A stretch of 32,000 bases of DNA, taken from positions 3,630,001 to 3,662,000 of the forward strand of contig NZ_CP042911.1 of assembly GCF_008065095.1 (NCBI RefSeq), read 5' to 3'. Positions within the stretch are counted from its first letter, which is position 1; each line of letters opens with the position of its first letter. The translations under genes and the position numbers were made by a program. This stretch comes from Gemmata obscuriglobus (lineage in GTDB: Bacteria; Planctomycetota; Planctomycetia; Gemmatales; Gemmataceae). Positions 4,144-31,884 of the stretch are shown here, in pieces. A model generated the notes under the pieces. The model was not told the origin of the DNA and made no database searches. It saw only the letters and a list, made by a program, of their open reading frames with translations.

Positions 4144-4159
4144 GTGGTCGCGCGACCAC
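4144..4159. repeat. palindrome copy (16/16)
   Basis: Intergenic, 25 nt before ATG 4185. Confidence 0.95.
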
Positions 4160-5171: not shown

Positions 5172-5187
5172 GTGGTCGCGCGACCAC
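5172..5187. repeat. palindrome copy (16/16; 20-bp palindrome 5170-5189)
   Basis: Immediately after TGA 5169-5171, 22 nt before GTG 5210. Confidence 0.95.
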
Positions 5188-6127: not shown

Positions 6128-6143
6128 GTGGTCGCGCGACCAC
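6128..6143. repeat. palindrome copy (16/16; 22-bp palindrome 6125-6146)
   Basis: Between the convergent stops of the sigma gene and the minus-strand minigene. Confidence 0.95.
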
Positions 6144-8383: not shown

Positions 8384-8399
8384 GTGGTCGCGCGACCAC
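8384..8399. repeat. palindrome copy (16/16)
   Basis: 1 nt after TGA 8380-8382, 15 nt before ATG 8415. Confidence 0.95.
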
Positions 8400-14750: not shown

Positions 14751-14766
14751 GTGGTCGCGCGACCAC
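14751..14766. repeat. palindrome copy (16/16)
   Basis: Intergenic, 29 nt before ATG 14796. Confidence 0.95.
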
Positions 14767-17098: not shown

Positions 17099-17114
17099 GT
17101 GGTCGCGCGACCAC
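17099..17114. repeat. palindrome copy (16/16)
   Basis: 14 nt before ATG 17129. Confidence 0.95.
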
Positions 17115-19094: not shown

Positions 19095-19201
19095 TTCAAC
19101 CGAGGCGGAAGAATCATTAGGGGTGGTGAACTTTTGATCATCTAGCGGGCGAGTCTGCGAATGCCATACTGGATGACATCTCGTCCAGTGGTAATTTGCC
19201 C

Positions 19202-19897
19202 ATGATGACCACACGCTGCCCGGGGTGTTCGGTTCTCGTTCGCGTGTCTGCGGAAGCAGCGGCGGCGGACCCTGCGTGTCCCCGATGCAGCTCTCCGTTA
19301 ATCTTGACCGTTGACGAGCCGAAGCCGATCACACGACCCAAATCAGCTCCTGTAGTGAACGAGCCCCCGCAGGAACGAGATTGGGAACCCGAACCGGAGC
19401 CGGAACAACCGGAACGGGAAGAGCCTGATCCCTACTACCGTCCGATTCGCCGGCGAAAAAAGAAGGGGCCACCGGTACTCGCCATTGCGACTGTTGGCGT
19501 TCTGTTCTTGGTTGCGATCGTGTCCGTTGTGGCGCTGCTGAACCGGGCCAAAAACGTTCAGGATCAGGCACGGGCAGCATCACAGAAGGGAACTGTTAAG
19601 AGCAGCCCACCGGTTCATTCCGAACGACCGATCGAAACACCAGTGCGGGCGACCGATTACAAGGACGAACTCGACCGCGAGGATTCGGAGCGGTTCGTAA
19701 CCCGAATACTCGCCCTTGCAATCGGTCTGCCGATCTACCTGCTTCCGACGGGCGTGGCGGTGTTTCGCCGGCACAACAATCTGGCTCCGATCGTGATAGT
19801 CAACGTGTTCCTCGGGCTCATTTTCGTCGGCTGGGTCGTCGCTTTGGCATGGTCCGTTTCCGACATGCGGCCCATGCGGACCGAGCGACCGGTTTGA
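19202..19897 (+). CDS. zinc-ribbon / transmembrane protein with C-terminal superinfection-immunity (T4 Imm-like, PF14373-type) domain
   Basis: N-terminus CPGC..CPRC. C-terminus IYLLPTGVAVFRRHNNLAPIVIVNVFLGLIFVGWVVALAWSV closely follows the Imm_superinfect pattern. Confidence 0.6.
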   Translation: MMTTRCPGCSVLVRVSAEAAAADPACPRCSSPLILTVDEPKPITRPKSAPVVNEPPQERDWEPEPEPEQPEREEPDPYYRPIRRRKKKGPPVLAIATVGVLFLVAIVSVVALLNRAKNVQDQARAASQKGTVKSSPPVHSERPIETPVRATDYKDELDREDSERFVTRILALAIGLPIYLLPTGVAVFRRHNNLAPIVIVNVFLGLIFVGWVVALAWSVSDMRPMRTERPV

Positions 19898-19914: not shown

Positions 19915-20397
19915 GTGGACGACGACACCGAACTCCTCATTCTGCGGCGACGGCGGCAACAGAAACAAGCCCGCCGACGCATGATCTTGCTGGCCTCACT
20001 CGCCGGCGTCGGGGCCGTACTCCTCCTCGCCATCGTCGTCGTCGCAGGACGAGCCGGAAGCGGGCGCGCGACCACAAACGTGTTGGGGGGGCCGTCCAAC
20101 CACGCCGAACTGGCCGATTTGCTGCGATCGAAGGGTCTCCAGGTCAGCTACGAATCTGCTGGCCCGTTGATTGATCGCCCGGAACGTCCGACGTCCATTT
20201 TCACGATCGATGTTGCAGGCAAGCGTGGTCTATTAATGGTGCATCTGAACAAGAGCGAATCGGCTGCACGCGAGCAAGTCGCCACGATGGGTGGCAACGG
20301 GTTCGCGTGCAGCCGATTCGCTCTTGAAGTGTGGATGGCAGATGAAGAGTCGAAGTCTGTATTCCTGCAAGTAAAACGAACACTGGGCGTCAACTGA
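19915..20397 (+). CDS. membrane-anchored hypothetical protein
   Basis: GTG 19915 lies 6 nt after GGAGGA, within ORF 19849..20397. One TM helix (ILLASLAGVGAVLLLAIVVVAG). Confidence 0.5.
   Translation: MDDDTELLILRRRRQQKQARRRMILLASLAGVGAVLLLAIVVVAGRAGSGRATTNVLGGPSNHAELADLLRSKGLQVSYESAGPLIDRPERPTSIFTIDVAGKRGLLMVHLNKSESAAREQVATMGGNGFACSRFALEVWMADEESKSVFLQVKRTLGVN
20060..20075. repeat. palindrome copy (14/16), in CDS
   Basis: gcgggcgcgcgaccac; read as SGRATT. Confidence 0.7.
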
Positions 20398-20407
20398 GAG
20401 GACGCCC
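20385..20407. terminator. hairpin spanning the convergent stops of genes 19915..20397 and 20390..21472
   Basis: gggcgtc-aactgagag-gacgccc; no U-tract. Confidence 0.25.
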
Positions 20408-21472
20408 GCCACTCGGGTACACGTGACCAGAGCGGCTGGCAGCGATCCGAGCTGTAGCGGCCATGCGGCCCAGCTCTGCGTCGATCCGAGCCGCCTCTCG
20501 CTCAATTCGCTCCGCATCAGCAGCAATCCCAGTAGACGCTGCCTTCTTGGATTCTTCTTCGCTCTTCTTTTTCTGCCTGTCGAGCAGCAGACCCATTACT
20601 CCGGCGGTCTTCAGTACGGGCGAGTTCGCAATTGCCTCTGTTGCGGCACTGATGATCCGCAGTGGGGGCACCAGGAGATCGTTCAGGAGAGCCAAAATCT
20701 CGTTCTTGGTGTTCGCCAAGACATTTTCTAAACCTTCGCTTGCGTCCTTGCGACGCTGTTCCGATTTTGCCAGTACGCCCGTCGAGCCCGCCTGAGCGTT
20801 GCCCTGCCGCCGGTCGCGCAACATCTCTTGGATGTCGCGCTGGGCAAGGACGGCCGCCATCGGTCCCGACACTTCCGCCAGCTTCCGGGCAGCGGCGATC
20901 TGCTCATCCGTAGCCTGGATGACAGCCTTTTTAAACTGGTTGAGGGCGTCCCCGACTGCGACAATGGCCCCGATCGGCCCGGCCAGACGGGCGAGACCCG
21001 CCGCCCCGCCAGTGAGTCCGCCCAGACCCGTCGGCCCCTTCCCACCCAGAAACTCGCCCACACCCTTAGTTGCGTTCGCGGACGCTTTACCGAACCGCGA
21101 GTTGTTCCAGAGCCTACGGAGGAACCCCGGCTCTTCTTCCTTTGGCGTTGTTGGCTTCGGCGGCCCTGGTAGTCCGCCCTGACCGGGCAGTCCGCCCACG
21201 ATCGACACCTGGAGCGGCTTTGGCCCCACGACGATCACCGATTGCGGGCGGTCGAACGCCGACACGACGCCGTTCTGCTCGCGGGCCGTGGTCGCGTGCT
21301 CGTGCTCCAGGGCGATCTCGCCCGGAAGAGCGATGATTGACTTGTGCAAGTCTTCGATCGCAAAAGACAGCGCCGCTTGGCTCGCGGCGGCCACCGTTTG
21401 CGACACCTTCGAGACATCCACCAAATCTCCCAGCGACTTGATGACATCATCGAGAGTCGAATCCCCGCCCAT
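20390..21472 (-). CDS. tape-measure-like protein (short, 360 aa)
   Basis: Minus-strand ATG 21472 preceded by AGGAGAAGG. Gly-rich hydrophobic segments (GLGGLTGGAAGLARLAGPIGAIVAVGD). Position after the chaperone. Confidence 0.5.
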   Translation of the reverse strand: MGGDSTLDDVIKSLGDLVDVSKVSQTVAAASQAALSFAIEDLHKSIIALPGEIALEHEHATTAREQNGVVSAFDRPQSVIVVGPKPLQVSIVGGLPGQGGLPGPPKPTTPKEEEPGFLRRLWNNSRFGKASANATKGVGEFLGGKGPTGLGGLTGGAAGLARLAGPIGAIVAVGDALNQFKKAVIQATDEQIAAARKLAEVSGPMAAVLAQRDIQEMLRDRRQGNAQAGSTGVLAKSEQRRKDASEGLENVLANTKNEILALLNDLLVPPLRIISAATEAIANSPVLKTAGVMGLLLDRQKKKSEEESKKAASTGIAADAERIEREAARIDAELGRMAATARIAASRSGHVYPSGGRPLS

Positions 21473-21483
21473 AACCTTCTCCT

Positions 21484-21499
21484 GTGGTCGCGCGACCAC
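21484..21499. repeat. palindrome copy (16/16)
   Basis: Between the GT-frame stop (21502-21504) and minus-strand ATG 21472. Confidence 0.95.
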
Positions 21500-21501
21500 C
21501 T

Positions 21502-22049
21502 TCAGCCCCGACCACTGATAGCCTCAACGACACATGCTGCGATGCTCTCGTAACGGGCCACCGCCGCTTCCTCTACTCGCTTGCGACCGGCCCAGACGCC
21601 GACGAAGGTGCGGTAGGGGAGTCGAGCGGGATCGAGGGCGAAGCCCGCGGCGGCGAGATCGAGAAAGGGCGGGCACTTGCGGCGAGTTGCTGCAAGAACG
21701 CCAGGAATCTGAACAGCACAAGCAGTCGCTCAGCTTCCGTCAGTCCGGCCGCCCCGTCCAGCGGTCGCAGCCCGAACATGGCGTCCGCGGCCTTGACGAG
21801 TGCCGTCACTGCGTCCGCTTTCTTCTGCTTCATGTCGGCGGCGACGGGCGTACCGGCCATTGCGGCGGCGAGGTCCGCCGGCACCTCGTGCGCGAGCACC
21901 CGGAGCCGATCCTCGTAGTCCGGGCACGATTCTTCGAGGACCCGGCCCGCAACCATCGGATCGGCCCGCCGTGTCGCGGTGCCGTCGAAGTACGCGAAGA
22001 TCTGCCGCTGGTGGTCACGCGACCACCAGCGGCGAAGGAAACCGAACAT
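21502..22049 (-). CDS. tail assembly chaperone, -1 frameshift fusion (GT-like), predicted
   Basis: The -1 frame is open from the slip site (21663-21669) to TGA (21504-21502). It has no start codon of its own. It encodes the protein-like sequence LDLAAAGFALDPARLPYRTFVGVWAGRKRVEEAAVARYESIAACVVEAISGRG. Confidence 0.5.
21573..22049 (-). CDS. tail assembly chaperone (G-like, 0-frame product)
   Basis: Lies between the tube-like and tape-measure-like genes. Contains an in-phase C_CCT_TTC slippery heptamer. Confidence 0.5.
   Translation of the reverse strand: MFGFLRRWWSRDHQRQIFAYFDGTATRRADPMVAGRVLEESCPDYEDRLRVLAHEVPADLAAAMAGTPVAADMKQKKADAVTALVKAADAMFGLRPLDGAAGLTEAERLLVLFRFLAFLQQLAASARPFSISPPRASPSIPLDSPTAPSSASGPVASE
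21663..21669 (-). other. -1 programmed frameshift slippery heptamer C_CCT_TTC
   Basis: + strand gaaaggg. The phase is exactly X_XXY_YYZ relative to the chaperone 0 frame (codons P128 F129). Confidence 0.55.
22011..22026. repeat. palindrome copy (15/16), in CDS
   Basis: gtggtcacgcgaccac; read as WWSRDH near the chaperone N-terminus. Confidence 0.85.
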
Positions 22050-22061
22050 GCTGCTACCTCG

Positions 22062-22568
22062 TTACAGGGCTCGGGTGTAGAGCGGGGTGTTGACCGCCGA
22101 AACGGTGGACGCGGGCGCGAACGGCCACGCGAAAAACGTGAGGTTCACCGGCTTGTTGCCCACGGACATCGGGATGCGGGCGTTCGGCCGGAGAACGCAG
22201 TGCAAGAACTTCCACGGGGTGTCATCGGACGCCGCAATGCCGATGGCGAAGTCGTCCCCGTTGGTTCCCACGAGTCGGCCGGGGGTGTTGAGCTGGCCTG
22301 CGGCCCCGCGGTTGCCCCGGTTGAGCACCTTGGTCAGGACGGCCGGGTCGATACTGATGAGCGGGCAGGTGATCGTCGCCACCTCCCCGAAGTCTTGAAG
22401 CTCGTGGGGCGTCATCTCACCGAACACGTCGGAGAAGATCTCCTTGTAGTTCTTGCTGATGTCGATATCGACCCCGCCTTGGGCGTACCCGAGCATTTCC
22501 TGCGCGGCGGCCGTGCCGGTGTAGGAATACACGATCGCCGGCCCCGTCCGCCAAAAACCGACCGCCAT
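22062..22568 (-). CDS. tail tube-like protein (by synteny)
   Basis: 168 aa, first gene of the minus-strand operon, upstream of the chaperone and tape-measure-like genes. Confidence 0.4.
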   Translation of the reverse strand: MAVGFWRTGPAIVYSYTGTAAAQEMLGYAQGGVDIDISKNYKEIFSDVFGEMTPHELQDFGEVATITCPLISIDPAVLTKVLNRGNRGAAGQLNTPGRLVGTNGDDFAIGIAASDDTPWKFLHCVLRPNARIPMSVGNKPVNLTFFAWPFAPASTVSAVNTPLYTRAL

Positions 22569-22612: not shown

Positions 22613-22628
22613 GTGGTCGCGCGACCAC
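22613..22628. repeat. palindrome copy (16/16) in divergent intergenic region
   Basis: 17 nt before ATG 22646; 6 nt from the minus-strand TACCATAT box. Confidence 0.95.
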
Positions 22629-22645: not shown

Positions 22646-24532
22646 ATGTCGGTCATCGAATACAACTCGATCCGGTTCCACTTCGCCAAAACCGCGAGCG
22701 TCGAGTTCGATACGTCCCGCGACAAGAGTGGCGTGGACGTGATCGCCAACACGACCACGATCCGGGCTCGCGGCGTCGCCTCGCTCACCTCGCAGGTGCC
22801 GGGCGATTCAGCCGCCTTGCTGCCCACCATCCGACACATGCTGAACATGCCCCGGCGGCGACTCCTGTATCAAGTGGGGGGATACACCATCATCTCCCAA
22901 TCCGGGATGGACGCCCAGCTCGGGCCGACCCCGGTCAAGCCCGCCACCGTCGAGCCGGCGGGCAACGGCACCTTCTTCGTGGACGTGGCGTACAAGGTCA
23001 GCACCTACGACTGTGGCGAGGCGGCCTTGTCCGACCCCGTTACCTCCCTCCGCTGGACGCAGTCCGAGAGCTTCGACGACCGCTGGTTCTCCACCATCAC
23101 CACGTCCGGCACCCTGACCGTCCGGAGCGACCTGAACCAGTGCGCCGACAACTTCCGGCAGTTGGCGACGCCCCCGATCCTCGACGACTACCAACGCGTG
23201 TCCGCCAAGTACACCCTCGCACCCGACGGGCTCAGCCTGGACTTCGAGTTCACCGACCAAGAGAAATCGCTTCTCCCCCCGTACCCGGCCGTAGTTGCTG
23301 ATGGCGATTTTAACGTCATTTGCCCGCAGAACCATAAACGCACAGGAGTAGTCACAATCACGCTCGAAGGGGCAAAGGGGTGTAGTCGGAAAGACCTGAT
23401 GTTCGTTGGGCTGCGGATGGCAATCGCGAAACTCAAAGCCGAAGGATTCATCGACGGCTCCCCTCTCATGTGGGGCAATTTCTCGGAAAATCTGTTCCGG
23501 CCAGTAGTGAAGGTAAGTGTCCAGGCACTTCTCGCCACACTCGGTGGGACTGGTTTCGCTGGTGCGGCGGCGGCTAGTCTCGGCGCCGCCGCGGCCGGGA
23601 TGAATGGCCCGGCGGTGATGCGGAGCGTCGGCTACACGCCAGGAGTGCAGGAGGGCCGGTCGGGAATCGCCCCGCCGGTCCGTAAGCGGTTGCTCGGGCT
23701 CCTGGCCGCCGCGTTCCGAGACCCATGTGCGGCCAGCGAGGGCTTCACGGCCGAGCTGCGGAACGACCGTGGCGGATCGGGGTCCAACGCCGAACTCTCG
23801 ACCGGCGGTGCGTCACTCTCCACACCGCCCGCCGAACTCGTGACCGGAACGACCGGCGGGGCCGGCACATCCCCGATCAAGGACTACGCACCGTATGACC
23901 TGTACCGCATCCAGTTCGAGTACACGCAAGATACGGGGAAGCGGGTGATGCCGGGAACCGGCGTCGGTGACACGCCCCAGCGGGGCACGGCGGTGACCGT
24001 CCACGGGGGGCAAATGTTTCTGGAGGTAAGTTGGGCATGCCAGAGAACTGGCAGGCCGCCCCAGATCCCGTCGTTCTCCGTGAACGATCCGAACCTCGTT
24101 GCCATTGGCGGGACGTGCATCCCGGCCGAGATGCAGCTTTCCGCGGACGGGAGCGCCCCGACGTATCGCGTCGCCGGCCACTACATCTATGGCGTGTTGG
24201 ACCCGTCATTGGTGTCACTCACGGCCCCGGTGCCACCATATTTCAGCGATGGCGTGCTCACCACCGCACCGAACATCGCCAACTTTACGGCCCCCGTTGT
24301 CCGGACCGGGAGCAGCGGCTCCGGGTACAGCGGTGGGGGGGACTACGGAAGCAACATCTTCGTTCCTGAGCGCGAGCCCTCGCTTTCCGTCGAGCCCCCG
24401 TCGCAATTGGACCTGTTCGGCATCCCCGGCCCGATCGGCGGCGGGTTTCCGTTCGCCGGCCCTCCGGGTGGGTTGGGCTCTGGCGATACGGGGGGCGGCG
24501 GGCTCCTTCCCACAAACCCCGTGAACCCGTAG
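22646..24532 (+). CDS. large virion (tail/baseplate-like) protein, hypothetical
   Basis: ATG 22646 follows GGAGGGGG, within ORF 22601..24532. 628 aa with a Gly-rich C-terminus. Carries two sequences homologous to array spacers. Confidence 0.6.
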   Translation: MSVIEYNSIRFHFAKTASVEFDTSRDKSGVDVIANTTTIRARGVASLTSQVPGDSAALLPTIRHMLNMPRRRLLYQVGGYTIISQSGMDAQLGPTPVKPATVEPAGNGTFFVDVAYKVSTYDCGEAALSDPVTSLRWTQSESFDDRWFSTITTSGTLTVRSDLNQCADNFRQLATPPILDDYQRVSAKYTLAPDGLSLDFEFTDQEKSLLPPYPAVVADGDFNVICPQNHKRTGVVTITLEGAKGCSRKDLMFVGLRMAIAKLKAEGFIDGSPLMWGNFSENLFRPVVKVSVQALLATLGGTGFAGAAAASLGAAAAGMNGPAVMRSVGYTPGVQEGRSGIAPPVRKRLLGLLAAAFRDPCAASEGFTAELRNDRGGSGSNAELSTGGASLSTPPAELVTGTTGGAGTSPIKDYAPYDLYRIQFEYTQDTGKRVMPGTGVGDTPQRGTAVTVHGGQMFLEVSWACQRTGRPPQIPSFSVNDPNLVAIGGTCIPAEMQLSADGSAPTYRVAGHYIYGVLDPSLVSLTAPVPPYFSDGVLTTAPNIANFTAPVVRTGSSGSGYSGGGDYGSNIFVPEREPSLSVEPPSQLDLFGIPGPIGGGFPFAGPPGGLGSGDTGGGGLLPTNPVNP

Positions 24533-24541
24533 GATGGGTTT

Positions 24542-25081
24542 CCTTCAATTCGGCCACGGGCTTACACCCGTGGAGAGCGGCCCGGCTTCGGCACCAGACT
24601 CGCCAGTAAGGCGCTTCAATTCGGCCACGGCGTTCAACCCGTGGAGACTCGGTCAGCCCGGCCGTCCCGTCCAGCGGCTTCAACCCGCTTCAATTCGGCC
24701 ACGGGTGCAAACCCGTGGAGAGGGCTGGTGACGATCGAATCGCTTCCGAAACGTCGCTGCTTCAATTCGGCCACGGGGGTCAACCCGTGGAGAGGCGACG
24801 CCCCCGATCCTCGACGACTACCAGCGGACGCTTCAATTCGGCCACGGGTGCAAGCCCGTGGAGAGACCGCTCGCCGTTCGATCGTGGCATAATTCGAGCC
24901 TGCTTCAATTCGGCCACGGAGATCAGCCCGTGGAGACCTCCCCGATACGGGACTACGCACCGTATGACCTGTAGCTTCAATTCGGCCACGGGAATCAACC
25001 CGTGGAGGTGGCTTCTTCGCTACACGGTAACACTCCGCACACGCCACTTCAATTCGGCCACGGGTGCGAATCTGTGGGGAG
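24542..25081. CRISPR. orphan CRISPR-like array, 8 repeats / 7 spacers, no cas genes in window
   Basis: 36-nt repeats at 24542, 24613, 24687, 24759, 24830, 24902, 24974 and 25046. Consensus GCTTCAATTCGGCCACGG-N7-CCCGTGGAGAG. Spacers are 35, 38, 36, 35, 36, 36 and 36 nt. The last repeat is degenerate (TCTGTGGGGAG). Confidence 0.8.
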
Positions 25082-25125: not shown

Positions 25126-25308
25126 TCACTCCCGTGCGAACACGCAGCACACGAGCGCGACGAGCGTCGTGAACGTGGCGATACACGCGGCCGAGAACAA
25201 CCCGTACAGACCGCTCAGGGCGACGATCGCCCCGTACATCGCACCGCCCAATCCCTGGCGGGCGACGCGGCGGGCACGGACCAGAAAACGCGGGATGCTG
25301 ATTCTCAC
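25126..25308 (-). CDS. small single-pass membrane protein (60 aa)
   Basis: Minus-strand GTG 25308 follows CGGAG and lies 24 nt downstream of a palindrome copy. TM segment GAIVALSGLYGLFSAACIATFTTLVALVCCVF. Confidence 0.45.
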   Translation of the reverse strand: MRISIPRFLVRARRVARQGLGGAMYGAIVALSGLYGLFSAACIATFTTLVALVCCVFARE

Positions 25309-25332
25309 AGTGGGCTCCGGGTTGGGGGCGAA

Positions 25333-25348
25333 GTGGTCGCGCGACCAC
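25333..25348. repeat. palindrome copy (16/16; 20-bp palindrome 25331-25350)
   Basis: Between minus-strand genes, 24 nt upstream of GTG 25308. Confidence 0.95.
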
Positions 25349-25349
25349 T

Positions 25350-25628
25350 TCAGTTGGTGGCGTTCTTCGCGGTGCAGATCGGGCACCCCGGATCGGGGCG
25401 GTGCGGGTGCCGCGGGCAACACGTCGTCACCCGCACCGCGAACGTGCGATACCGGCACTCCTCGCAGTCGCAGTCGCCCATCGGCACGTCCCCGCGGTGA
25501 CCGCACTCGTAACAGTACGTCGGCACGTTCGCGTACACGCGGTTCAGCGTCTTGCACCACGAACACGCGGTCCGGTGGATGGTGCCGCAGACCGGCTCGT
25601 CGGTCCGCAGGGCGTGACGGTTCGGCAT
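25350..25628 (-). CDS. Cys-rich zinc-binding small protein (92 aa)
   Basis: Minus-strand ATG 25628 lies 7 nt after AAGGAG. More than 12 Cys in CxxC-type pairs (CSWC, CYEC, CDCEEC, CPIC). Confidence 0.6.
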   Translation of the reverse strand: MPNRHALRTDEPVCGTIHRTACSWCKTLNRVYANVPTYCYECGHRGDVPMGDCDCEECRYRTFAVRVTTCCPRHPHRPDPGCPICTAKNATN

Positions 25629-25713
25629 GACGGGTCTCCTTGGTTCGGTCACGCGGATGGTATCGGTTGTTGCGGAATTCCGTAATGTCAGTGGCGAGTT
25701 GTTGAACTGAAGC

Positions 25714-25986
25714 TCAGACATTCAGTGGTCGCCAGTCGCCCCACTGGTTGTTGCGTTCCATCCAGGCCGATGCGACGAACCGGCCGTCTGTCGTCCGCAC
25801 CCACACCTCGGCCCGGGGCCGTTCCCACTCGTCGTTGGCCCCGATCCACACGATGCGCCAGCCGGGCGGCATGGGGCGGATGGGGGCCGGGAAACCGTCC
25901 GGAACCCAGAACGCGTCCGCGTAAACCGGTTGGTCGGCGGCGTCCAGTTCACGAATCCACTGAGGCACTTCGGAGCAGCGGGACAC
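25714..25986 (-). CDS. Trp-rich small hypothetical protein (90 aa)
   Basis: Minus-strand GTG 25986 lies 6 nt after GGAGG and 24 nt downstream of a palindrome. The upstream part of ORF 25714..26454 reads through the palindrome and is rejected. Confidence 0.5.
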   Translation of the reverse strand: MSRCSEVPQWIRELDAADQPVYADAFWVPDGFPAPIRPMPPGWRIVWIGANDEWERPRAEVWVRTTDGRFVASAWMERNNQWGDWRPLNV

Positions 25987-26010
25987 GGGCGTCCTCCGTT
26001 GGGGATGAAA

Positions 26011-26026
26011 GTGGTCGCGCGACCAC
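26011..26026. repeat. palindrome copy (16/16)
   Basis: Between minus-strand genes, 24 nt upstream of GTG 25986. Confidence 0.95.
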
Positions 26027-26027
26027 C

Positions 26028-26330
26028 TCAGAACGCCATCTCCACAACGTCCGCCCTCCGCTTCCGCCACTCGCCCCAACTCCGCGTCCGGTGCGACCAC
26101 GTGAGCGAGTACCGCCAGTCCCGGTCGTAATACACCACCCGCAGCGAGCCCGGCGGCGTCGCCATCACGCTCACGGGAACCAGACCCCGCGGCGGGCGGT
26201 TCCGGCCCCGCGGCAACCCGTCCACCCAACCGATACCCGTCAGGTGGATCTTCCCGTTCCGCATCTCGAACGGCACCGGAGACCACTTCAGCCGATTGAC
26301 CGATTTGCGAGAATTGAGTAACGTAGACAT
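26028..26330 (-). CDS. Trp-rich small hypothetical protein (100 aa), loosely similar to the preceding one
   Basis: ATG 26330 follows GAGGTG. The stop abuts palindrome 26011-26026. Confidence 0.55.
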   Translation of the reverse strand: MSTLLNSRKSVNRLKWSPVPFEMRNGKIHLTGIGWVDGLPRGRNRPPRGLVPVSVMATPPGSLRVVYYDRDWRYSLTWSHRTRSWGEWRKRRADVVEMAF

Positions 26331-26389: not shown

Positions 26390-26428
26390 AATTTCGTGTC
26401 GGGCAACCACCGCTCGACAGGGATACAA

Positions 26429-26469
26429 TAAGGCGACATGCCCTTGTTTGTCAAGGCGATGTCGCCTTA
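26429..26469. promoter_or_regulatory. operator-like inverted repeats upstream of the XRE gene
   Basis: TAAGGCGACAT (26429-26439) and ATGTCGCCTTA (26459-26469). Inner dyad AAGGCGA-TG-TCGCCTT at 26453-26468. TTGTCA at 26448-26453 is -35-like. Confidence 0.45.
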
Positions 26470-26487: not shown

Positions 26488-26757
26488 ATGGCCATCCCAG
26501 CCGTGGCGAAGAAAAACATCAGGACCGGCTTTGGGAAGCGACTCCGCGAGTTGCGGATCGACAAGAATTTGACTCAATCCCAGCTCGGTGAGCGTGCCGG
26601 GATGATGTACCAAGATGTAGCGAAACTCGAACGTGGCGAACGTGAGCCGATGTGGGCTACCGTCATTCGCTTGGCTGATGCTCTTGGCGTGCGGGCTGAT
26701 GACTTCCGCACGCTCGAAGATCCGTTGGCCGATCTCCCGGAGTTGCCGCTGGAGTGA
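26488..26757 (+). CDS. XRE/Cro-CI family HTH regulator
   Basis: In-frame ATG 26488. KRLRELRIDKNLTQSQLGERAGMMYQDVAKLERGEREP is a classic HTH_3 pattern. Confidence 0.8.
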   Translation: MAIPAVAKKNIRTGFGKRLRELRIDKNLTQSQLGERAGMMYQDVAKLERGEREPMWATVIRLADALGVRADDFRTLEDPLADLPELPLE

Positions 26758-29488: not shown

Positions 29489-29504
29489 GTGGTCGCGCGA
29501 CCAC
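29489..29504. repeat. palindrome copy (16/16)
   Basis: Intergenic; 6 nt before the TACCATAA box. Confidence 0.95.
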
Positions 29505-30110: not shown

Positions 30111-30641
30111 ATGGCGGGCGGGCGGGAGTGGACGACGGGCGAGGAGGCCGAACTGAAACGGCTCCTCGCTGCCGGAACGAAGCTGGCGACCGTCGCCAAA
30201 CGGCTGAACCGGTCCTACTCGGCGGTGGCCCAGCGGGCGTTCCGGGTGTCGGGCCGGGAGCGGCTGCCCCGGCTCCACAAGGCCGGTGAGTTGGAGGAGC
30301 GGGTGCGGTCGCTTTCGGTTCCCGGCGTTCCTGACGCGGTGGTCGCGGGCATCCTGGGCGTGACCCGGCAGACCGTTCTGAAGACCCGCCAGCGGCTCGG
30401 TATCCCCCAGAGCGTACCGCCGAACGGGAAACTGCCCCGCGACCCGGCCAAGCGGTCGGACCTGTCGATCGCCGCGAAGGTGCTGTGGCTGTACTCGGGC
30501 GTCGGGCGGTCCGATGTGGTGATTGCGAAGCGGATCGGCGTGTCGAGAACGACCGTCCGCGATTACCGGCTCAAATTCAACCTGCCGGCGTTGGGCGAAC
30601 TGAAGTGTGGTCGCGCGACCACTACGGAGGTGCAGAAATGA
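30111..30641 (+). CDS. multi-HTH (Myb/SANT-like) DNA-binding protein
   Basis: ATG 30111 follows GGGAGG. WTTGEEAELKRLLAAGTKLATVAKRLNRSYSAVAQRA plus two further HTH-like segments. Confidence 0.5.
   Translation: MAGGREWTTGEEAELKRLLAAGTKLATVAKRLNRSYSAVAQRAFRVSGRERLPRLHKAGELEERVRSLSVPGVPDAVVAGILGVTRQTVLKTRQRLGIPQSVPPNGKLPRDPAKRSDLSIAAKVLWLYSGVGRSDVVIAKRIGVSRTTVRDYRLKFNLPALGELKCGRATTTEVQK
30607..30622. repeat. palindrome copy (16/16)
   Basis: In the last codons of the HTH gene (CGRATT), 15 nt before thyX ATG 30638. Confidence 0.95.
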
Positions 30642-31567
30642 AAGTCATCACCGAGCCTTCGGTTTACGTCTTGGGCCGACAAACGGTCGATCAGGCCGAA
30701 CTCGATCGATTTTTGGTCGACCACGGCGTGAGCTGGGAGAGTGACAGCGAGGTCGCTGGCGAAGTGCTCACGGAAACGGCGGGACGCGTCTGTTATATGT
30801 CGTTCGCGAAGCCGCGACCGGGCGGCAACAGCGCGTACCTGACCCACATCAAGGAAGTGGGGCACGGGAGCGTGCTGGAGCACGCGGTGTGGAACCTGCT
30901 CCTCACCGGGGTGTCGCGGTCGCTCACGCACGAGCTGGTGCGGCACCGCGCCGGGTTCGGGTTCAGCCAGCTCTCGCAGCGGTACGTGGACGAGTCGGTG
31001 GCCGAGTACGTGGAGCCCGACATCATCGCCCGCGACCCCGAGTTGCACGCGATCTGGCTCGAATCGGTGAAGCAGTCGCACGCGGCGTACATGAAGCTCG
31101 CCGACGCGCTCAGCGCGAAGCTAACGAACACGTTCGGTCCGTGCGACAACCCGAACTGTGAGCGTGGTTACCAAGCGGACCACCTGAAGGTTCGGACCTA
31201 TGTGGCTTGCCCCACATGCAAAGGGAGTCCCAGTAAGGCATGGTACGCTGCGCCGCTCGGTCGGTTTGTGCCGGGATGGGAGAACGGTCTGACCGCGACT
31301 GATCGCCGCAAGGCCGCGCGTCAGGCCGCGCGGAGCGTGCTGCCGAACGCCACCGAGACCAAGATCTTCATCACCGCGAACGCCCGTGCTCTGCGGCACT
31401 TCATGGAGCAGCGTGGATCGGTCCACGCCGAACCGGAGATTCGGAAGCTCTCGTGCGCGATCCTTGACGCGCTCCAGAAAGACGCCCCCAACCTCTTCAG
31501 TGACTACCAGAAGGTGCCCCTTCCCGACGGCACGTTTGAACTGGTGACGCAGTTCAAGAAGGTGTGA
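30638..31567 (+). CDS. thyX: flavin-dependent thymidylate synthase ThyX with an internal Cys4 insertion
   Basis: ATG 30638 (ATGA overlap, ACGGAGG SD). ThyX signature LTHELVRHRAGFGFSQLSQRY (RHRxxSxxxxSxR). 309 aa. Confidence 0.85.
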   Translation: MKVITEPSVYVLGRQTVDQAELDRFLVDHGVSWESDSEVAGEVLTETAGRVCYMSFAKPRPGGNSAYLTHIKEVGHGSVLEHAVWNLLLTGVSRSLTHELVRHRAGFGFSQLSQRYVDESVAEYVEPDIIARDPELHAIWLESVKQSHAAYMKLADALSAKLTNTFGPCDNPNCERGYQADHLKVRTYVACPTCKGSPSKAWYAAPLGRFVPGWENGLTATDRRKAARQAARSVLPNATETKIFITANARALRHFMEQRGSVHAEPEIRKLSCAILDALQKDAPNLFSDYQKVPLPDGTFELVTQFKKV

Positions 31568-31578
31568 GGAGCCGCAGC

Positions 31579-31884
31579 ATGAGCCAGAAGTCCAAGTCCC
31601 CACAAGAGGTGGCGAGAGAGCAAACGCTCGCGATCTCGGAACACCTGTACCTCGCCGGCCGCGACGGGCTGACCGCCGAGCAACTGGCCGGCGCGGCCAA
31701 GTTTCCGGTCGAGATCGTTCGAAAGCGGCTCCACGCCGGCGGCCCGAACTGTGCGAACCCCGAGTGGCGGCGGTTCACGTTCGACCGGCTGACGAACCGC
31801 TGGGCACTGACGCTCGGTGGGGAGCAAGTTTTGAAGAGAAGTGGTCGCGCGACCACCCGCCCGGGGCGGCGGCGGATCGCCTGA
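31579..31884 (+). CDS. hypothetical (winged-helix-like?) protein
   Basis: ATG 31579 lies 8 nt after GGAG. 101 aa. A palindrome copy lies in its last 15 codons. Confidence 0.5.
   Translation: MSQKSKSPQEVAREQTLAISEHLYLAGRDGLTAEQLAGAAKFPVEIVRKRLHAGGPNCANPEWRRFTFDRLTNRWALTLGGEQVLKRSGRATTRPGRRRIA
31841..31856. repeat. palindrome copy (16/16)
   Basis: In the last codons of gene 31579..31884 (SGRATT). Confidence 0.95.

What the first reader, a model, noticed from the sequence alone, without database searches (positions are those of the whole stretch)
21736..21773. Spacer 2 matches the tail-chaperone gene on the opposite coding strand
Spacer 2 (24649-24686) is TCGGTCAGCCCGGCCGTCCCGTCCAGCGGCTTCAACCC. 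The + strand at 21736-21773 reads TCCGTCAGTCCGGCCGCCCCGTCCAGCGGTCGCAGCCC. Identity is 31/38. On the minus strand the gene encodes GLRPLDGAAGLTE and the spacer encodes GLKPLDGTAGLT. The changes are three silent (CTG->TTG, GGA->GGG, ACG->ACC) plus R->K and A->T. With this, three of seven spacers derive from relatives of tail genes lying within 3 kb of the array.
Basis: seen in the sequence. Interest (0 to 1): 0.8.

Follow-up and report, generated by a model that had tools for sequence, protein, structure and literature searches.

The report
Prophage CRISPR array aimed at relatives
A prophage of the planctomycete Gemmata obscuriglobus carries a CRISPR array with no cas genes of its own, and four of its seven spacers are imperfect, codon-respecting copies of three genes next to the array. 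This is the known signature of virus-borne arrays thought to use a host's CRISPR machinery against related viruses.

Summary
Spacer 2 (24649-24686) matches 21736-21773 at 31/38, against 23.6±0.9 for dinucleotide shuffles (0/400, z=8). The mismatches are synonymous or conservative in the frame of the minus-strand 158-aa gene. Spacers 4 and 6 match the neighbouring 628-aa gene (31/35, 32/36). I add spacer 1: it encodes RPGFGTRLASK, a motif of the neighbouring 168-aa gene in relatives, where the resident allele has diverged (14/35).

The array has 8 repeats and 7 spacers and belongs to the type I-G family of Gemmataceae: 36 nt, 7-bp stem, CCGA linker and ATTGAAGC handle. It is probably transcribed on the minus strand. 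It has no cas genes and no host-type leader, and sits at the end of a leftward operon inside a G. obscuriglobus prophage.

Every resident near-match lacks either a TTN PAM or a matching seed, so the prophage should be immune to its own guides.

This fits the published class of virus-borne CRISPR arrays that target adjacent genes of close relatives (Faure 2019; Medvedeva 2019). It is a new member of that class.

Not supported or unproven:
- the "tail-chaperone" label;
- any perfectly matching target;
- a cognate I-G system in G. obscuriglobus.

Unusual extras are loop-hypervariable repeats and a homing-like mini-array cassette in a relative.

The parts
24542..25081 (-). CRISPR array without cas genes: 8 repeats of 36 nt and 7 spacers of 35-38 nt. 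The canonical (transcribed) orientation is the minus strand.
   Evidence: Searches give the parsing. Searches give the orientation: in related host loci the I-G cas genes and the array are co-oriented with ...CCGAATTGAAGC at the repeat's 3' end.
24542..24577 (-). Repeat R1 (last in canonical order): CTCT-CCACGGG-TGTAAG-CCCGTGG-CCGA-ATTGAAGG
   Evidence: hairpin -15.2 kcal/mol.
24613..24648 (-). Repeat R2
   Evidence: 6-bp stem, loop differs from the others.
24687..24722 (-). Repeat R3
24759..24794 (-). Repeat R4
24830..24865 (-). Repeat R5
24902..24937 (-). Repeat R6
24974..25009 (-). Repeat R7
25046..25081 (-). Repeat R8, first in canonical order. It is degenerate (CTCC-CCACAGA-TTCGCA-CCCGTGG-CCGA-ATTGAAGT) and its stem is broken.
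   Evidence: -3.8 kcal/mol, no better than shuffles.
24578..24612 (-). Spacer 1. It derives from a relative's allele of the 168-aa gene and encodes RPGFGTRLASK.
   Evidence: L148 28/35, L143 27/35. TTN flanks in 5/5 relatives.
24649..24686 (-). Spacer 2, the subject of the finding.
24723..24758 (-). Spacer 3, no match found anywhere.
24795..24829 (-). Spacer 4, matches the 628-aa gene (ATPPILDDYQR).
24866..24901 (-). Spacer 5, no match found anywhere.
24938..24973 (-). Spacer 6, matches the 628-aa gene (SPI[K/R]DYAPYDL).
25010..25045 (-). Spacer 7, no match found. It lies next to the degenerate repeat R8.
21736..21773 (-). Resident near-protospacer of spacer 2 (31/38). In canonical orientation its 5' flank is TTC, the invariant Phe codon, and mismatches fall at positions 4, 7, 8, 9, 22, 30 and 36.
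22156..22190 (+). Site in the resident 168-aa gene homologous to the spacer-1 target. It has diverged fully (14/35; RPNARIPMSVG).
23165..23199 (-). Resident near-protospacer of spacer 4 (31/35). The PAM-distal 29 nt are identical. Mismatches fall at PAM-proximal positions 1, 2, 3 and 6, and the 5' flank is GAC, not TTN.
23869..23904 (-). Resident near-protospacer of spacer 6 (32/36). The PAM-proximal 24 nt are identical, but the 5' flank is CGG, not TTN.
21573..22049 (-). 158-aa gene of unknown function, identical to GobsT_31050 of Gemmata obscuriglobus. Holds the spacer-2 site.
   Evidence: No family hit.
22062..22568 (-). 168-aa gene (weak PHROG 2175 'Ig domain' hit). Its relatives' alleles are the source of spacer 1.
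22646..24532 (+). 628-aa gene, conserved in the phage family. By fold it resembles only uncharacterised Caudovirales proteins. Holds the spacer-4 and spacer-6 sites. Its stop codon is 9 nt from the array.
20390..21472 (-). 360-aa gene, the fourth member of the conserved four-gene module.
   Evidence: synteny in L135, L136, L137, L144, L146, L148.
25126..26330 (-). Leftward operon of four small genes. The last encodes a small hydrophobic peptide whose stop is 44 nt before repeat R8. The array is co-oriented with the operon and immediately downstream.
   Evidence: (gene calls).
26425..26454 (-). Promoter-like site (TTGACA-18-TATTGT, 10/12) in the divergent region facing an HTH gene. Candidate promoter for the operon and array.
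   Evidence: 1 found against 0.2 expected. No minus-strand terminator was predicted before the array.
26488..26757 (+). Divergent HTH (HTH_3/HTH_31) regulator gene. The arrangement looks like an immunity or lysogeny-control region.

Best explanation
The window is part of a prophage of Gemmata obscuriglobus. Between the 3' end of a conserved 628-aa phage gene and a leftward regulatory operon it carries a leaderless type I-G CRISPR array with no cas genes. At least four of its seven spacers were taken from related phages, from three adjacent genes whose resident copies lie 0.6-2.8 kb from the array.

Most likely mechanism:
1. The array is transcribed on the minus strand as the tail of the leftward operon (inferred).
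2. Csb2 of a host type I-G system cuts each repeat 4 nt after the hairpin (inferred from repeat anatomy).
3. The phage-encoded crRNAs load host Cascade and Cas3 (inferred).
4. Incoming relatives that carry matching alleles with a TTN PAM are destroyed, which is superinfection exclusion and inter-phage competition (inferred).

The prophage itself is spared because each resident site lacks either the PAM (S4, S6) or seed complementarity (S2, S4), or is a wholly different allele (S1). This last point is shown directly by the sequence.
For: Spacer matches:
- Matches are far beyond chance and are codon-aware.
- S1 matches relatives but not the resident allele, so at least that spacer is foreign in origin.

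Element and host:
- The element is phage-like: TerL, a Mu-type portal, a sigma factor, DnaN, ThyX and HTH regulators.
- It is in G. obscuriglobus: the 158-aa protein is 100% identical to GobsT_31050, and the array is identical in draft assembly ABGO01000025.

Repeat type:
- The repeat's 17-mer forms long uniform arrays in Gemmataceae and Isosphaeraceae genomes.
- Those arrays sit next to cas3g, csx17, csb1 and csb2, co-oriented with them.
- Repeat anatomy (4 nt, 7-bp stem, 6-nt loop, CCGA, 8-nt ATTGAAGC handle) equals the biochemically defined I-G repeat. The published I-G PAM is TTN.
- Seven of eight repeats fold into the hairpin.
- Stem, linker and handle are 93-100% identical among R1-R7, while loops are 44% identical. 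This implies selection on what Csb2 needs.

PAM and self-avoidance:
- 5' flanks are TTN at all five S1 sites in relatives and at all three S2 sites. The S2 PAM is the invariant Phe codon of the family.
- Resident sites systematically lack PAM or seed.

Recurrence and literature:
- Two related elements show the same design: L138/L009 (spacer against the gene it follows; PAM-distal 24 nt exact, seed diverged) and L035.
- Virus-borne mini-arrays are reported to target adjacent genes of close relatives and not the carrier, with point mutations or deletions at the carrier's own sites (PMC6858448; PMC11656645).
Against: - No genome in any collection searched has a perfect or near-perfect target. The best hits are 32/38 and 28/35, all with seed mismatches, so present-day interference is unproven.
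- S4 and S6 sites have no TTN PAM in any sampled genome. S4 has TTG at the wrong end, as if the spacer were flipped.
- No Csb2 from G. obscuriglobus appears among the best 120 of 2193 hits, although G. massiliana, G. palustris and Frigoriglobus orthologues rank near the top. The lysogen may therefore lack the cognate effector.
- The leader-proximal repeat is degenerate and there is no host-type leader. The array cannot be updating by normal adaptation, and S7 is probably not processed.
- There are no expression data.
Confidence: 0.6

Rival explanations
1. Linked killer-and-immunity cassette (CRISPR-guided homing or marker exclusion). The array and the adjacent resistant alleles are one selfish unit. 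Guides cut the sensitive alleles of neighbouring genes in a co-infecting relative. Survivors arise by recombination with the carrier's resistant alleles, and this drags the tightly linked array along. Tight linkage is also needed so that recombination never pairs the array with a sensitive allele. This refines the best explanation rather than opposing it.
For: - All four assignable spacers map 0.6-2.8 kb from the array in an element of about 39 kb or more. A rough chance estimate for the three resident near-matches is (6.6/38.6)^3, about 0.005; this is my own arithmetic.
- L138: the array sits 2 nt after the stop of the gene it matches.
- L035: 22 nt of the protospacer in thyX appear to be replaced by a cassette of a new C-terminus, about 100 nt, and a mini-array against the uninterrupted site. 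The exact last 12 nt of the wild-type allele (AAGAAGGTGTGA) resume right after the last repeat.
- In relatives, a family-specific palindrome directly follows the 628-aa gene's stop. In the window the array and a small ORF sit between that stop and the next palindrome, which reads as an insertion.
- Medvedeva 2019 states that the proximity of targets to the arrays is unexplained.
Against: - There is detection bias: only spacers that fall in conserved genes can be recognised, and most relatives were fetched through the 628-aa gene.
- Only one clear cassette-in-target case exists (L035), and its inverted spacer orientation is not explained by simple homing.
- There is no pair of genomes with filled and empty sites.
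- Other mini-arrays of the family (L004, L008, L070, L129) show no near-self match in the DNA available.
Confidence: 0.2
2. Captured fragment of a host array that is now a relic, or that acts only as an RNA decoy (Racr-like). In this reading the repeats soak up Csb2 and Cas7 to blunt host immunity, and spacer content merely reflects the donor host's history of primed adaptation against this phage family.
For: - No leader and a degenerate first repeat.
- No perfect target is known.
- S4 and S6 lack a PAM everywhere sampled.
- Clustering of four targets within about 2.7 kb is what primed adaptation in a host would give (established knowledge of type I priming).
- Phage repeat units acting as RNA anti-CRISPRs are documented (PMC10651486, listed).
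- The host may lack I-G genes.
Against: - Seven complete repeat-spacer units with perfectly conserved stem, linker and handle, beside saturated loops, argue for long selection on processable units rather than decay.
- Decoys described so far are mostly solitary repeats.
- All resident sites avoid PAM plus seed, which matters only if the guides are active.
- The same design recurs in L138 and L035.
Confidence: 0.15
3. Self-derived spacers. The lysogen's adaptation machinery took spacers from the resident prophage, and the prophage then escaped autoimmunity by mutating its own sites.
For: - S4 (29-nt perfect run, changes confined to PAM and seed) and S6 (24-nt perfect run, non-TTN flank) look like classic escape patterns.
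- L138's spacer shows the same pattern: 24 nt exact, seed block changed.
Against: - S1's resident allele is a different allele class (14/35; RPNARIPMSVG against RPGFGTRLASK), while relatives match 25-28/35.
- S2 differs at 7 scattered positions, including a three-base R>K codon change, and is as close to L139 and L144 as to the resident gene.
- A leaderless array with a broken first repeat is a poor acquisition site.
Confidence: 0.08
4. Self-regulation. Partially matched crRNA-like guides (as in CreA or crlRNAs) make Cascade bind without cutting, and so repress the prophage's own structural genes.
For: - Partial complementarity to the prophage's own genes.
- The array sits in what looks like the immunity operon.
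- S6 has a 24-nt PAM-proximal perfect match.
Against: - Known regulatory guides need a PAM plus a seed match, usually at a promoter. Here no resident site has both: S2 has the PAM but seed mismatches at 4, 7, 8 and 9, while S4 and S6 have no TTN.
- All sites are inside coding regions.
- S1 has no resident site at all.
Confidence: 0.03
5. Chance similarity in GC-rich sequence.
For: The window is 62-70% G+C.
Against: - 0/400 dinucleotide shuffles reach the observed scores (z = 8-13).
- Mismatches respect the reading frame.
- Protein-level scores exceed all shuffles.
Confidence: 0

Closest known systems
Virus-borne mini-CRISPR arrays of Saccharolobus portogloboviruses SPV1/SPV2 (Medvedeva et al. 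2019, PMC6858448)
   Same: - An array without cas genes inside a viral genome, with repeats of a host CRISPR family.
- Spacers match close relatives.
- The carrier's own orthologous sites carry mutations that prevent self-targeting.
- Targets lie close to the array.
- The proposed role is heterotypic superinfection exclusion.
   Different: - SPV arrays have 1-2 spacers, promoter-bearing leaders like the host's, repeats like the host's, and 100% matches to a co-occurring virus.
- Here there are 7 spacers, no host-type leader, a degenerate first repeat, loop-diversified repeats and no perfect target known.
- The host is bacterial (Planctomycetota) and the system is type I-G, not Sulfolobales type I/III.
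[quoted passage not shown] 2019, as summarised in PMC6858448 and PMC11656645)
   Same: - Leaderless arrays in prophages.
- Spacers target adjacent genes of closely related viruses but not the carrier.
- Thought to arise by recombination with host arrays.
   Different: - The reviews describe repeats identical to the host's and one or two spacers.
- This array is longer, and each repeat has a different loop.
- I could not read the primary paper, so details rest on the two citing papers.
Chromosomal type I-G CRISPR-Cas loci of Gemmataceae/Isosphaeraceae (e.g. L083, L101, L153; biochemistry from Thioalkalivibrio I-G, bioRxiv 10.1101/2022.08.08.503147)
   Same: - 36-nt repeat with a 7-bp stem, 4-nt linker and 8-nt ATTGAAGC handle.
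- 35-38-nt spacers.
- TTN flanks at S1 and S2 targets.
   Different: - Host arrays are uniform (63/66, 39/43 and 12/12 identical repeats), lie next to cas genes and have a shared leader motif.
- The window array has no cas genes, no such leader and heterogeneous loops.
Free-standing homing endonuclease genes of T-even phages (marker exclusion). This is a comparison of how it may work, made from my own knowledge; it is not a membership claim.
   Same: - A selfish cassette beside a conserved gene.
- It cuts the allele of that neighbouring gene in a co-infecting relative.
- The carrier's allele is resistant through polymorphisms.
- Repair co-converts the cassette into the victim.
   Different: - Here the nuclease would be host Cascade-Cas3 guided by phage RNA.
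- No transmission advantage has been shown.
RNA anti-CRISPRs (Racr; PMC10651486)
   Same: Phage-encoded mimics of host CRISPR repeats, transcribed without cas genes.
   Different: - Racrs are mostly solitary repeats whose 'spacer' content is irrelevant.
- Here there are full units whose spacers match phage genes with correct PAM geometry for S1 and S2.

Membership tests
Type I-G CRISPR array | 36-nt repeat forming a ~7-bp hairpin, cleaved 4 nt 3' of the stem to leave an 8-nt 5' handle. | tested here: met
   Canonical repeat is CTCT-CCACGGG-N6-CCCGTGG-CCGA-ATTGAAGC. Seven of eight copies fold as expected.
Type I-G CRISPR array | The same repeat family occurs next to I-G cas genes (cas3g, cas8g/csx17, cas7g/csb1, csb2) in cellular genomes. 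| tested here: met
   L083 and L101 arrays carry the identical 17-mer and are followed by csb2, csb1, csx17 and cas3g. L153, a Gemmata MAG, shares the handle and has a full I-G locus with cas4-cas1 and cas2.
Type I-G CRISPR array | Regularly spaced repeats with unique spacers of uniform length. | tested here: met
   Start-to-start spacing is 71-74 nt and spacers are 35-38 nt.
Type I-G CRISPR array | TTN PAM 5' of protospacers on the crRNA-sense strand. | tested here: inconclusive
   TTN is present at 5/5 S1 sites and 3/3 S2 sites. It is absent at 0/6 S4 sites and 0/2 S6 sites. True targets are unknown.
Type I-G CRISPR array | cas genes and a leader adjacent to the array. | tested here: not met
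   No cas domain is found in the window or in the gene calls of the element. The upstream region shares no motif with the host leaders of L153, L083 and L101. It is therefore an orphan, leaderless array of the I-G family.
Virus-borne mini-CRISPR array | The array lies inside a viral or proviral genome and has no cas genes. | tested here: met
   The array is flanked on both sides by genes of the phage element (628-aa module on the left; HTH regulators and ThyX on the right). The whole region assembles as 38.6-kb contigs and sits in the G. obscuriglobus chromosome.
Virus-borne mini-CRISPR array | Spacers match closely related viruses and not the carrier. | tested here: met
   S1, S2, S4 and S6 match genes of the phage family at 71-91%. 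The carrier's own sites lack PAM or seed, or are a different allele. Caveat: no perfect target was found.
Virus-borne mini-CRISPR array | Repeats identical or near-identical to those of the actual host's CRISPR-Cas system. | tested here: inconclusive
   The repeats match the Gemmataceae I-G family. No G. obscuriglobus Csb2 is in the best 120 hits, and the host's own arrays were not retrievable because the genome scan was truncated.
Virus-borne mini-CRISPR array | Only one or two spacers (the definition of 'mini'). | tested here: not met
   There are seven spacers. It is a virus-borne array but not 'mini' in the strict sense.
Virus-borne mini-CRISPR array | Confers exclusion of the targeted virus. 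| not testable with these tools
   This needs infection or plasmid-challenge experiments.
crRNA-like regulatory RNAs (CreA / crlRNA) | Partial match to the carrier's own DNA that keeps the PAM and PAM-proximal seed, usually at a promoter. | tested here: not met
   No resident site combines TTN with an intact seed, and all sites are intragenic.
RNA anti-CRISPR (Racr) | Repeat mimic, typically solitary, acting independently of spacer content. | not testable with these tools
   The structure is a full array rather than a solitary repeat. The function cannot be judged from sequence.

The most novel reading that the evidence does not exclude
The array and the resistant alleles of the three genes beside it form one selfish killer-and-immunity cassette, in effect a natural CRISPR-guided homing or gene-drive element of phages.

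- Guides made from the cassette use host Cascade-Cas3 to cut sensitive alleles of the neighbouring genes in co-infecting relatives.
- Only recombinants that copy in the resistant alleles survive, and the tightly linked array comes with them.
- The L035 relative may be a caught-in-the-act example: a mini-array cassette sits inside the very protospacer it targets.
- This would also explain the proximity between virus-borne arrays and their targets, which the literature calls unexplained.
Probability: 0.2. Interest if true: 0.8.

Novelty: new member of a known kind. Interest (0 to 1): 0.45.

Why it matters
If it works as proposed, this is inter-phage warfare by borrowed CRISPR immunity in a phylum (Planctomycetota) and a CRISPR subtype (I-G) where I found no description of it.

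The host is culturable and its prophage, array and candidate targets are all in hand.

The case is cleaner than most in three respects:
- Four spacers converge on three adjacent genes.
- Two of the PAMs are locked by conserved codons.
- Each resident site shows a different route to self-immunity.

The case also bears on an open point stated in the literature: why virus-borne arrays target genes next to themselves. A testable linkage or homing explanation is available.

The loop-only hypervariability of the repeats gives a natural mutational map of what the I-G processing enzyme does and does not read.

Tried and rejected
Function of the target genes
- Pfam and PHROGs gave nothing for the 158-, 360- and 628-aa proteins. 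The 168-aa protein has only a weak 'Ig domain' PHROG hit.
- Profile searches of the PDB gave nothing.
- AF2 of the 628-aa protein (pLDDT 64) has no PDB fold match. In BFVD it matches only uncharacterised Caudovirales proteins.
- AF2 of the 168-aa protein without an alignment failed (pLDDT 34).
- tblastn against GenBank phages found no match.
- So 'tail' and 'tail chaperone' remain guesses.

True targets
- Protein-guided scans of viral contigs found none.
- Metagenome contigs gave only 39-44% relatives.
- Exact 20-21-mers of S3, S5 and S7 have no hit in viral contigs.
- 5.8 kb to the left of the window and the right flank have no S3, S5 or S7 hit.
- Spacers of host arrays (184 from fetched loci and 67 from L153) do not hit this phage family, so no independent PAM could be derived.

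Host cas genes
- The Csb2 search lists no G. obscuriglobus protein. Literature searches were uninformative.

Other dead ends
- Rfam and tRNA scans of the window found nothing.
- A junction search for an empty L035 site found nothing.
- tblastx maps of relatives were swamped by GC-rich noise and were not used.
- Faure 2019 could not be read.

Rejected readings
- Protein-coding repeat: the period is not a multiple of 3.
- Host chromosomal array beside a prophage: the array is internal to the element.
- Self-regulation: no resident site has PAM plus seed.
- Chance: excluded by the shuffle test.
Full report
**1. Observation**

The sequence at 24542-25081 is a regular array of eight 36-nt repeats. 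Start-to-start spacing is 71-74 nt, and the repeats separate seven spacers of 35-38 nt.

I scanned every spacer, ungapped, against both strands of the window with the array masked.
- Spacer 2 has one outlier hit, 31/38 at 21736-21773. The next-best hits are 24/38.
- Spacer 4 has 31/35 at 23165-23199.
- Spacer 6 has 32/36 at 23869-23904.
- Spacers 1, 3, 5 and 7 top out at 21-23.

With 400 dinucleotide-preserving shuffles of each spacer, the best genome-wide hit averages 21.3-23.6 (sd about 0.9, maximum 24-26). The three matches therefore lie 8.1, 10.1 and 13.3 sd above expectation, and no shuffle reaches them.

The codon argument is also right. In the frame of the minus-strand ORF 21573-22049 the gene reads GLRPLDGAAGLT and the spacer reads GLKPLDGTAGLT. 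There are three silent changes, a three-base CGA>AAG (R>K) change and GCG>ACG (A>T). S4 encodes exactly the resident ATPPILDDYQR. S6 encodes SPIRDYAPYDL against the resident SPIKDYAPYDL.

**2. A fourth spacer**

Relatives of the 628-aa protein were found by protein search and their contigs were fetched.

Spacer 1 has no match in the window, but it matches the gene homologous to the resident 168-aa ORF (22062-22568, minus) in these relatives.
- L148 matches 28/35 and L143 27/35.
- L141 matches 26/35.
- L136, L137, L146 and L147 match 25/35.

It encodes RPGFGTRLASK, the family motif C[FI]IRPG[FY]GT..AS[KA]ANP. L143 has RPGFGTRLATK. The resident allele reads RPNARIPMSVG there and shares only 14/35 bases.

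So four of seven spacers (S1, S2, S4, S6) derive from three adjacent genes, and at least S1 cannot have come from the resident copy.

S3, S5 and S7 match nothing. I checked the window, 5.8 kb further left, the right flank, all relatives at DNA or protein level, and IMG/VR.

**3. What the element is**

The window encodes the following:
- an SNF2-helicase/methylase fusion;
- a DnaN homologue;
- a sigma-70-family factor;
- a large terminase;
- a 1365-aa Mu-type portal fusion;
- a superinfection-immunity membrane protein;
- HTH regulators;
- ThyX.

The 158-aa protein is 100% identical to GobsT_31050 of Gemmata obscuriglobus. The locus is present in the 9.03-Mb chromosome and in draft contig ABGO01000025 with the identical array. 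It also assembles as separate 38.6-kb contigs in several sequencing runs. It is therefore a prophage, or a prophage-derived episome, of G. obscuriglobus.

The array is internal to the element. The 628-aa gene ends 9 nt to its left. To its right lies a leftward operon of four small genes (25126-26330) that diverges from an HTH gene (26488-26757).

**4. What kind of array it is**

The 17-mer CTTCAATTCGGCCACGG occurs as long arrays in Planctomycetota genomes:
- Singulisphaera, 66 copies;
- Gemmataceae, 43;
- Fimbriiglobus, 29;
- Gemmata, 4.

In L083 and L101 these arrays are followed by cas3g, csx17 (cas8g), csb1 (cas7g) and csb2. A Gemmata MAG (L153) has a complete I-G locus (cas4-cas1, cas2, csb1, csb2, cas3g) followed by a co-oriented array ending in ...GGCCGAATTGAAGC.

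- In these loci the cas genes and array are co-oriented.
- In L043 and L088 the degenerate repeats lie at the far end of the array.

In that orientation the repeat is CTCT-CCACGGG-N6-CCCGTGG-CCGA-ATTGAAGC. This is exactly the architecture shown biochemically for type I-G: a 36-nt repeat with a 7-bp stem, cleaved by Csb2 4 nt after the stem to leave an 8-nt handle, with a TTN PAM (bioRxiv 10.1101/2022.08.08.503147).

Seven of the eight repeats fold into this hairpin. The leader-proximal R8 does not.

There are no cas genes in the window or in the element's gene calls. The 300 nt upstream share none of the motifs common to the host leaders. Instead, the array begins 44 nt after the stop of a small hydrophobic ORF. 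A promoter-like site (TTGACA-18-TATTGT) sits at 26454-26425 on the same strand, and no terminator is predicted in between. Transcription as the tail of that operon is an inference, not a demonstration.

**5. Self versus non-self**

Read in the canonical orientation:
- **S2.** The resident site has a bona fide TTC PAM, the invariant Phe codon of the family, but mismatches at positions 4, 7, 8, 9, 22, 30 and 36.
- **S4.** The resident site is identical over the PAM-distal 29 nt. It differs at positions 1, 2, 3 and 6 and has GAC instead of TTN.
- **S6.** The resident site is identical over the PAM-proximal 24 nt but has CGG instead of TTN.
- **S1.** There is no resident counterpart.

Every resident site is thus disarmed, each in a different way. 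That pattern is what one expects if the guides are, or were, active.

In relatives the PAM-side flank is TTG/TTC/TTG/TTA/TTT at the five S1 sites and TTC at the S2 sites. This agrees with I-G.

Two points count against the model. The S4 and S6 sites carry no TTN in any sampled genome, and S4 has TTG at the opposite end, as a flipped spacer would. No sampled genome matches any spacer well enough, seed included, to be a present-day target.

**6. Comparison with what is known**

Medvedeva et al. 2019 (PMC6858448) describe virus-borne mini-arrays in SPV1 and SPV2 with these features:
- Their spacers hit the sister virus.
- The carrier's orthologous sites are mutated or deleted.

They also summarise Faure et al. 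2019. That work found many phages and prophages carrying leaderless mini-arrays whose spacers target adjacent genes of closely related viruses but not the carrier, probably acquired by recombination with host arrays. The 2024 review PMC11656645 repeats this.

The present locus fits that class in every tested respect except size (seven spacers, not one or two) and repeat uniformity. I therefore file it as a new member of a known kind: a prophage-borne, leaderless type I-G array without cas genes, in a planctomycete.

I do not file it as a crRNA-like regulator, because no resident site has PAM plus seed. Its structure is not that of a solitary-repeat RNA anti-CRISPR, although a decoy effect cannot be excluded.

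**7. Mechanism and its weak points**

Shown:
- the array's structure;
- its family;
- its position in a prophage;
- the foreign, homologous origin of four spacers;
- the disarmed state of the resident sites.

Inferred:
- transcription from the leftward operon;
- processing by a host Csb2;
- loading into host Cascade;
- exclusion of relatives.

The main weakness is the host. A search with a planctomycete Csb2 returned orthologues from G. massiliana, G. palustris G18 and Frigoriglobus near the top of the list. It returned none from G. obscuriglobus among the best 120 of 2193 hits. G. palustris G18 also harbours two copies of the targeted gene module. The genome-wide repeat scan was truncated before it could show the host's own arrays. 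The array may therefore be idle in this lysogen and useful only in I-G-positive hosts, or it may be a relic.

Against decay, stem, linker and handle are 93-100% identical among R1-R7, while the six loop bases are only 44% identical. That pattern points to long-continued selection on exactly the parts Csb2 needs.

**8. The proximity problem and the most novel reading**

The four assignable targets lie 0.6-2.8 kb from the array. Two relatives show the same pattern.

- **L138/L009.** A three-repeat array starts 2 nt after the stop of a portal-like gene. One spacer matches that gene 950 nt upstream: 24 nt are exact and the PAM-proximal 11 nt are replaced.
- **L035.** This relative shares the window's thyX region. 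Its thyX allele follows the window-type sequence up to ...CCCGATGGCAC and then switches to an AT-rich alternative C-terminus. About 100 nt later comes a two-repeat array whose only spacer is the uninterrupted version of that site. It matches the window allele 27/33 and L035's own allele 22/33. Directly after the last repeat, the exact final 12 nt of the window-type allele (AAGAAGGTGTGA) resume.

The L035 arrangement is the logic of a homing element that sits inside, and thereby destroys, its own target. The inverted orientation of the spacer remains unexplained.

In relatives of the window, a family-specific palindrome follows the 628-aa gene's stop directly. In the window the array and a small ORF lie between that stop and the next palindrome, as an insertion would.

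Three non-exclusive explanations for the proximity remain:
- detection bias towards conserved genes;
- capture of host-array fragments by spacer-protospacer recombination;
- selection for tight linkage between guides and resistant alleles, with drive-like spread.

I give the linkage or homing reading about 0.2.

**9. Verdict**

The finding is correct as an observation. Its interpretation is largely right (spacers from relatives of neighbouring genes). Its gene labels go beyond the evidence, and the phenomenon belongs to a known class. Interest is moderate. It is a well-resolved, experimentally approachable example with some unusual features, not a new kind of system.

Noticed in passing
window, 38 sites (e.g. 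4144-4159, 5172-5187, 6128-6143, 8384-8399, 14751-14766, 17099-17114, 21484-21499, 22613-22628, 25333-25348, 26011-26026, 29489-29504, 30607-30622, 31841-31856): The 16-bp perfect palindrome GTGGTCGCGCGACCAC occurs 38 times (20 exact copies, the rest with up to 2 mismatches), against 0.12 expected. Most copies lie in the short gaps between genes, just after a stop and 15-30 nt before the next start. Exact copies occur only in loci of this phage family and in none of 141 other loci. It may be a stoperator-like repressor site, an intercistronic hairpin, or a site for the phage sigma factor or methylase. Many GTG 'starts' in the ORF list are just its first three bases.
   Followed up: partly
window 24542-25009 (repeats R1-R7): Among R1-R7 all variation is confined to the 6-nt loop, the loop-closing base and the two outermost positions. 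Loop pairwise identity is 0.44, against 0.93-1.00 elsewhere. Host arrays of the same family are nearly uniform. The loops look saturated, yet S4 still shares a 29-nt perfect run with the resident gene. So loop diversity is not simple neutral ageing of the whole array. It may be selected to suppress repeat-mediated deletion, or it may come from shuffling of units between arrays.
   Followed up: partly
L035 300-700 (Planctomycetia MAG PMV_1_maxbin.004, contig JAKEEV010000921.1); window 31523-31567: A two-repeat mini-array lies about 100 nt downstream of a thyX homologue. Its single spacer is the uninterrupted form of the 3' end of that gene. L035's own allele switches to an AT-rich alternative tail inside the protospacer. 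The exact last 12 nt of the window-type allele reappear right after the last repeat, which looks like a cassette inserted into its own target.
   Followed up: partly
L138 2761-2940 and 1809-1843 (= L009; IMG Ga0272446_1004201 / IMGVR_UViG_3300028735_000293): A related phage carries a three-repeat I-G mini-array 2 nt after the stop of an 803-aa portal-like gene. One spacer matches that gene with 24 exact bases and a replaced PAM-proximal block. The third repeat has its loop inverted relative to the first two (CAGACC against GGTCTG). Loop inversion between neighbouring repeats is also seen in L008.
   Followed up: partly
window 23153-23164 / 23165-23199: The resident spacer-4 site has TTG (a conserved Leu codon, also TTG in L148 and L146) at the end opposite to the expected PAM side. 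Spacer 4 therefore looks like a flipped spacer. If the array were ever transcribed on the + strand, this site (PAM plus 29-nt perfect match) would be a self-target.
   Followed up: partly
L016, L025, L039, L051, L058, L110, L116 (Planctomycetota MAG contigs): Single, complete copies of the I-G repeat (hairpin and handle) stand alone in contigs. They may be solitary repeat units of the kind proposed as RNA anti-CRISPRs, or array ends cut by assembly. Most other single hits of the 17-mer in non-planctomycete genomes are chance matches without the hairpin.
   Followed up: no
L136 7852-11896 and L137 7849-11896 (Gemmata palustris G18, two replicons/contigs): The same four-gene module (332/333, 156, 169 and 631 aa) occurs twice in G. 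palustris G18, each within about 6 kb of an integrase. No terminase, portal or capsid gene lies within ±10 kb. The module may also travel on smaller integrative elements, possibly satellites, which could be the real targets of spacer 1. G18 has a type I-G csb2.
   Followed up: no
window 8415-12512: A 1365-aa ORF has a Mu-type portal domain only in residues 58-432. The remaining ~900 residues are unassigned and contain four copies of the palindrome.
   Followed up: no
window 19196-19897: This gene encodes a membrane protein with a C-terminal Imm_superinfect domain (PF14373, E = 2.4e-11). It would be a second, protein-based superinfection-immunity function a few kb from the array, and it is also present in relative L135.
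   Followed up: no
window about 30638-30709 (start of thyX, 30638-31567): The 38.6-kb Logan contigs of two independent runs both end at this point, inside the phage thyX gene. This suggests a second thyX-like copy in the genome that breaks assemblies, so the contig ends are not the true ends of the element.
   Followed up: no
window 25126-25312: The ORF just upstream of the array (canonical direction) probably starts at the GTG at 25310-25312, after a GGAG. It encodes a ~60-aa hydrophobic peptide (MRISIPRFLVRARRVARQGLGGAMYGAIVALSGLYGLFSAACIATFTTLVALVCCVFARE). Together with the array it fills the gap between the 628-aa gene's stop and the palindrome at 25333.
   Followed up: no
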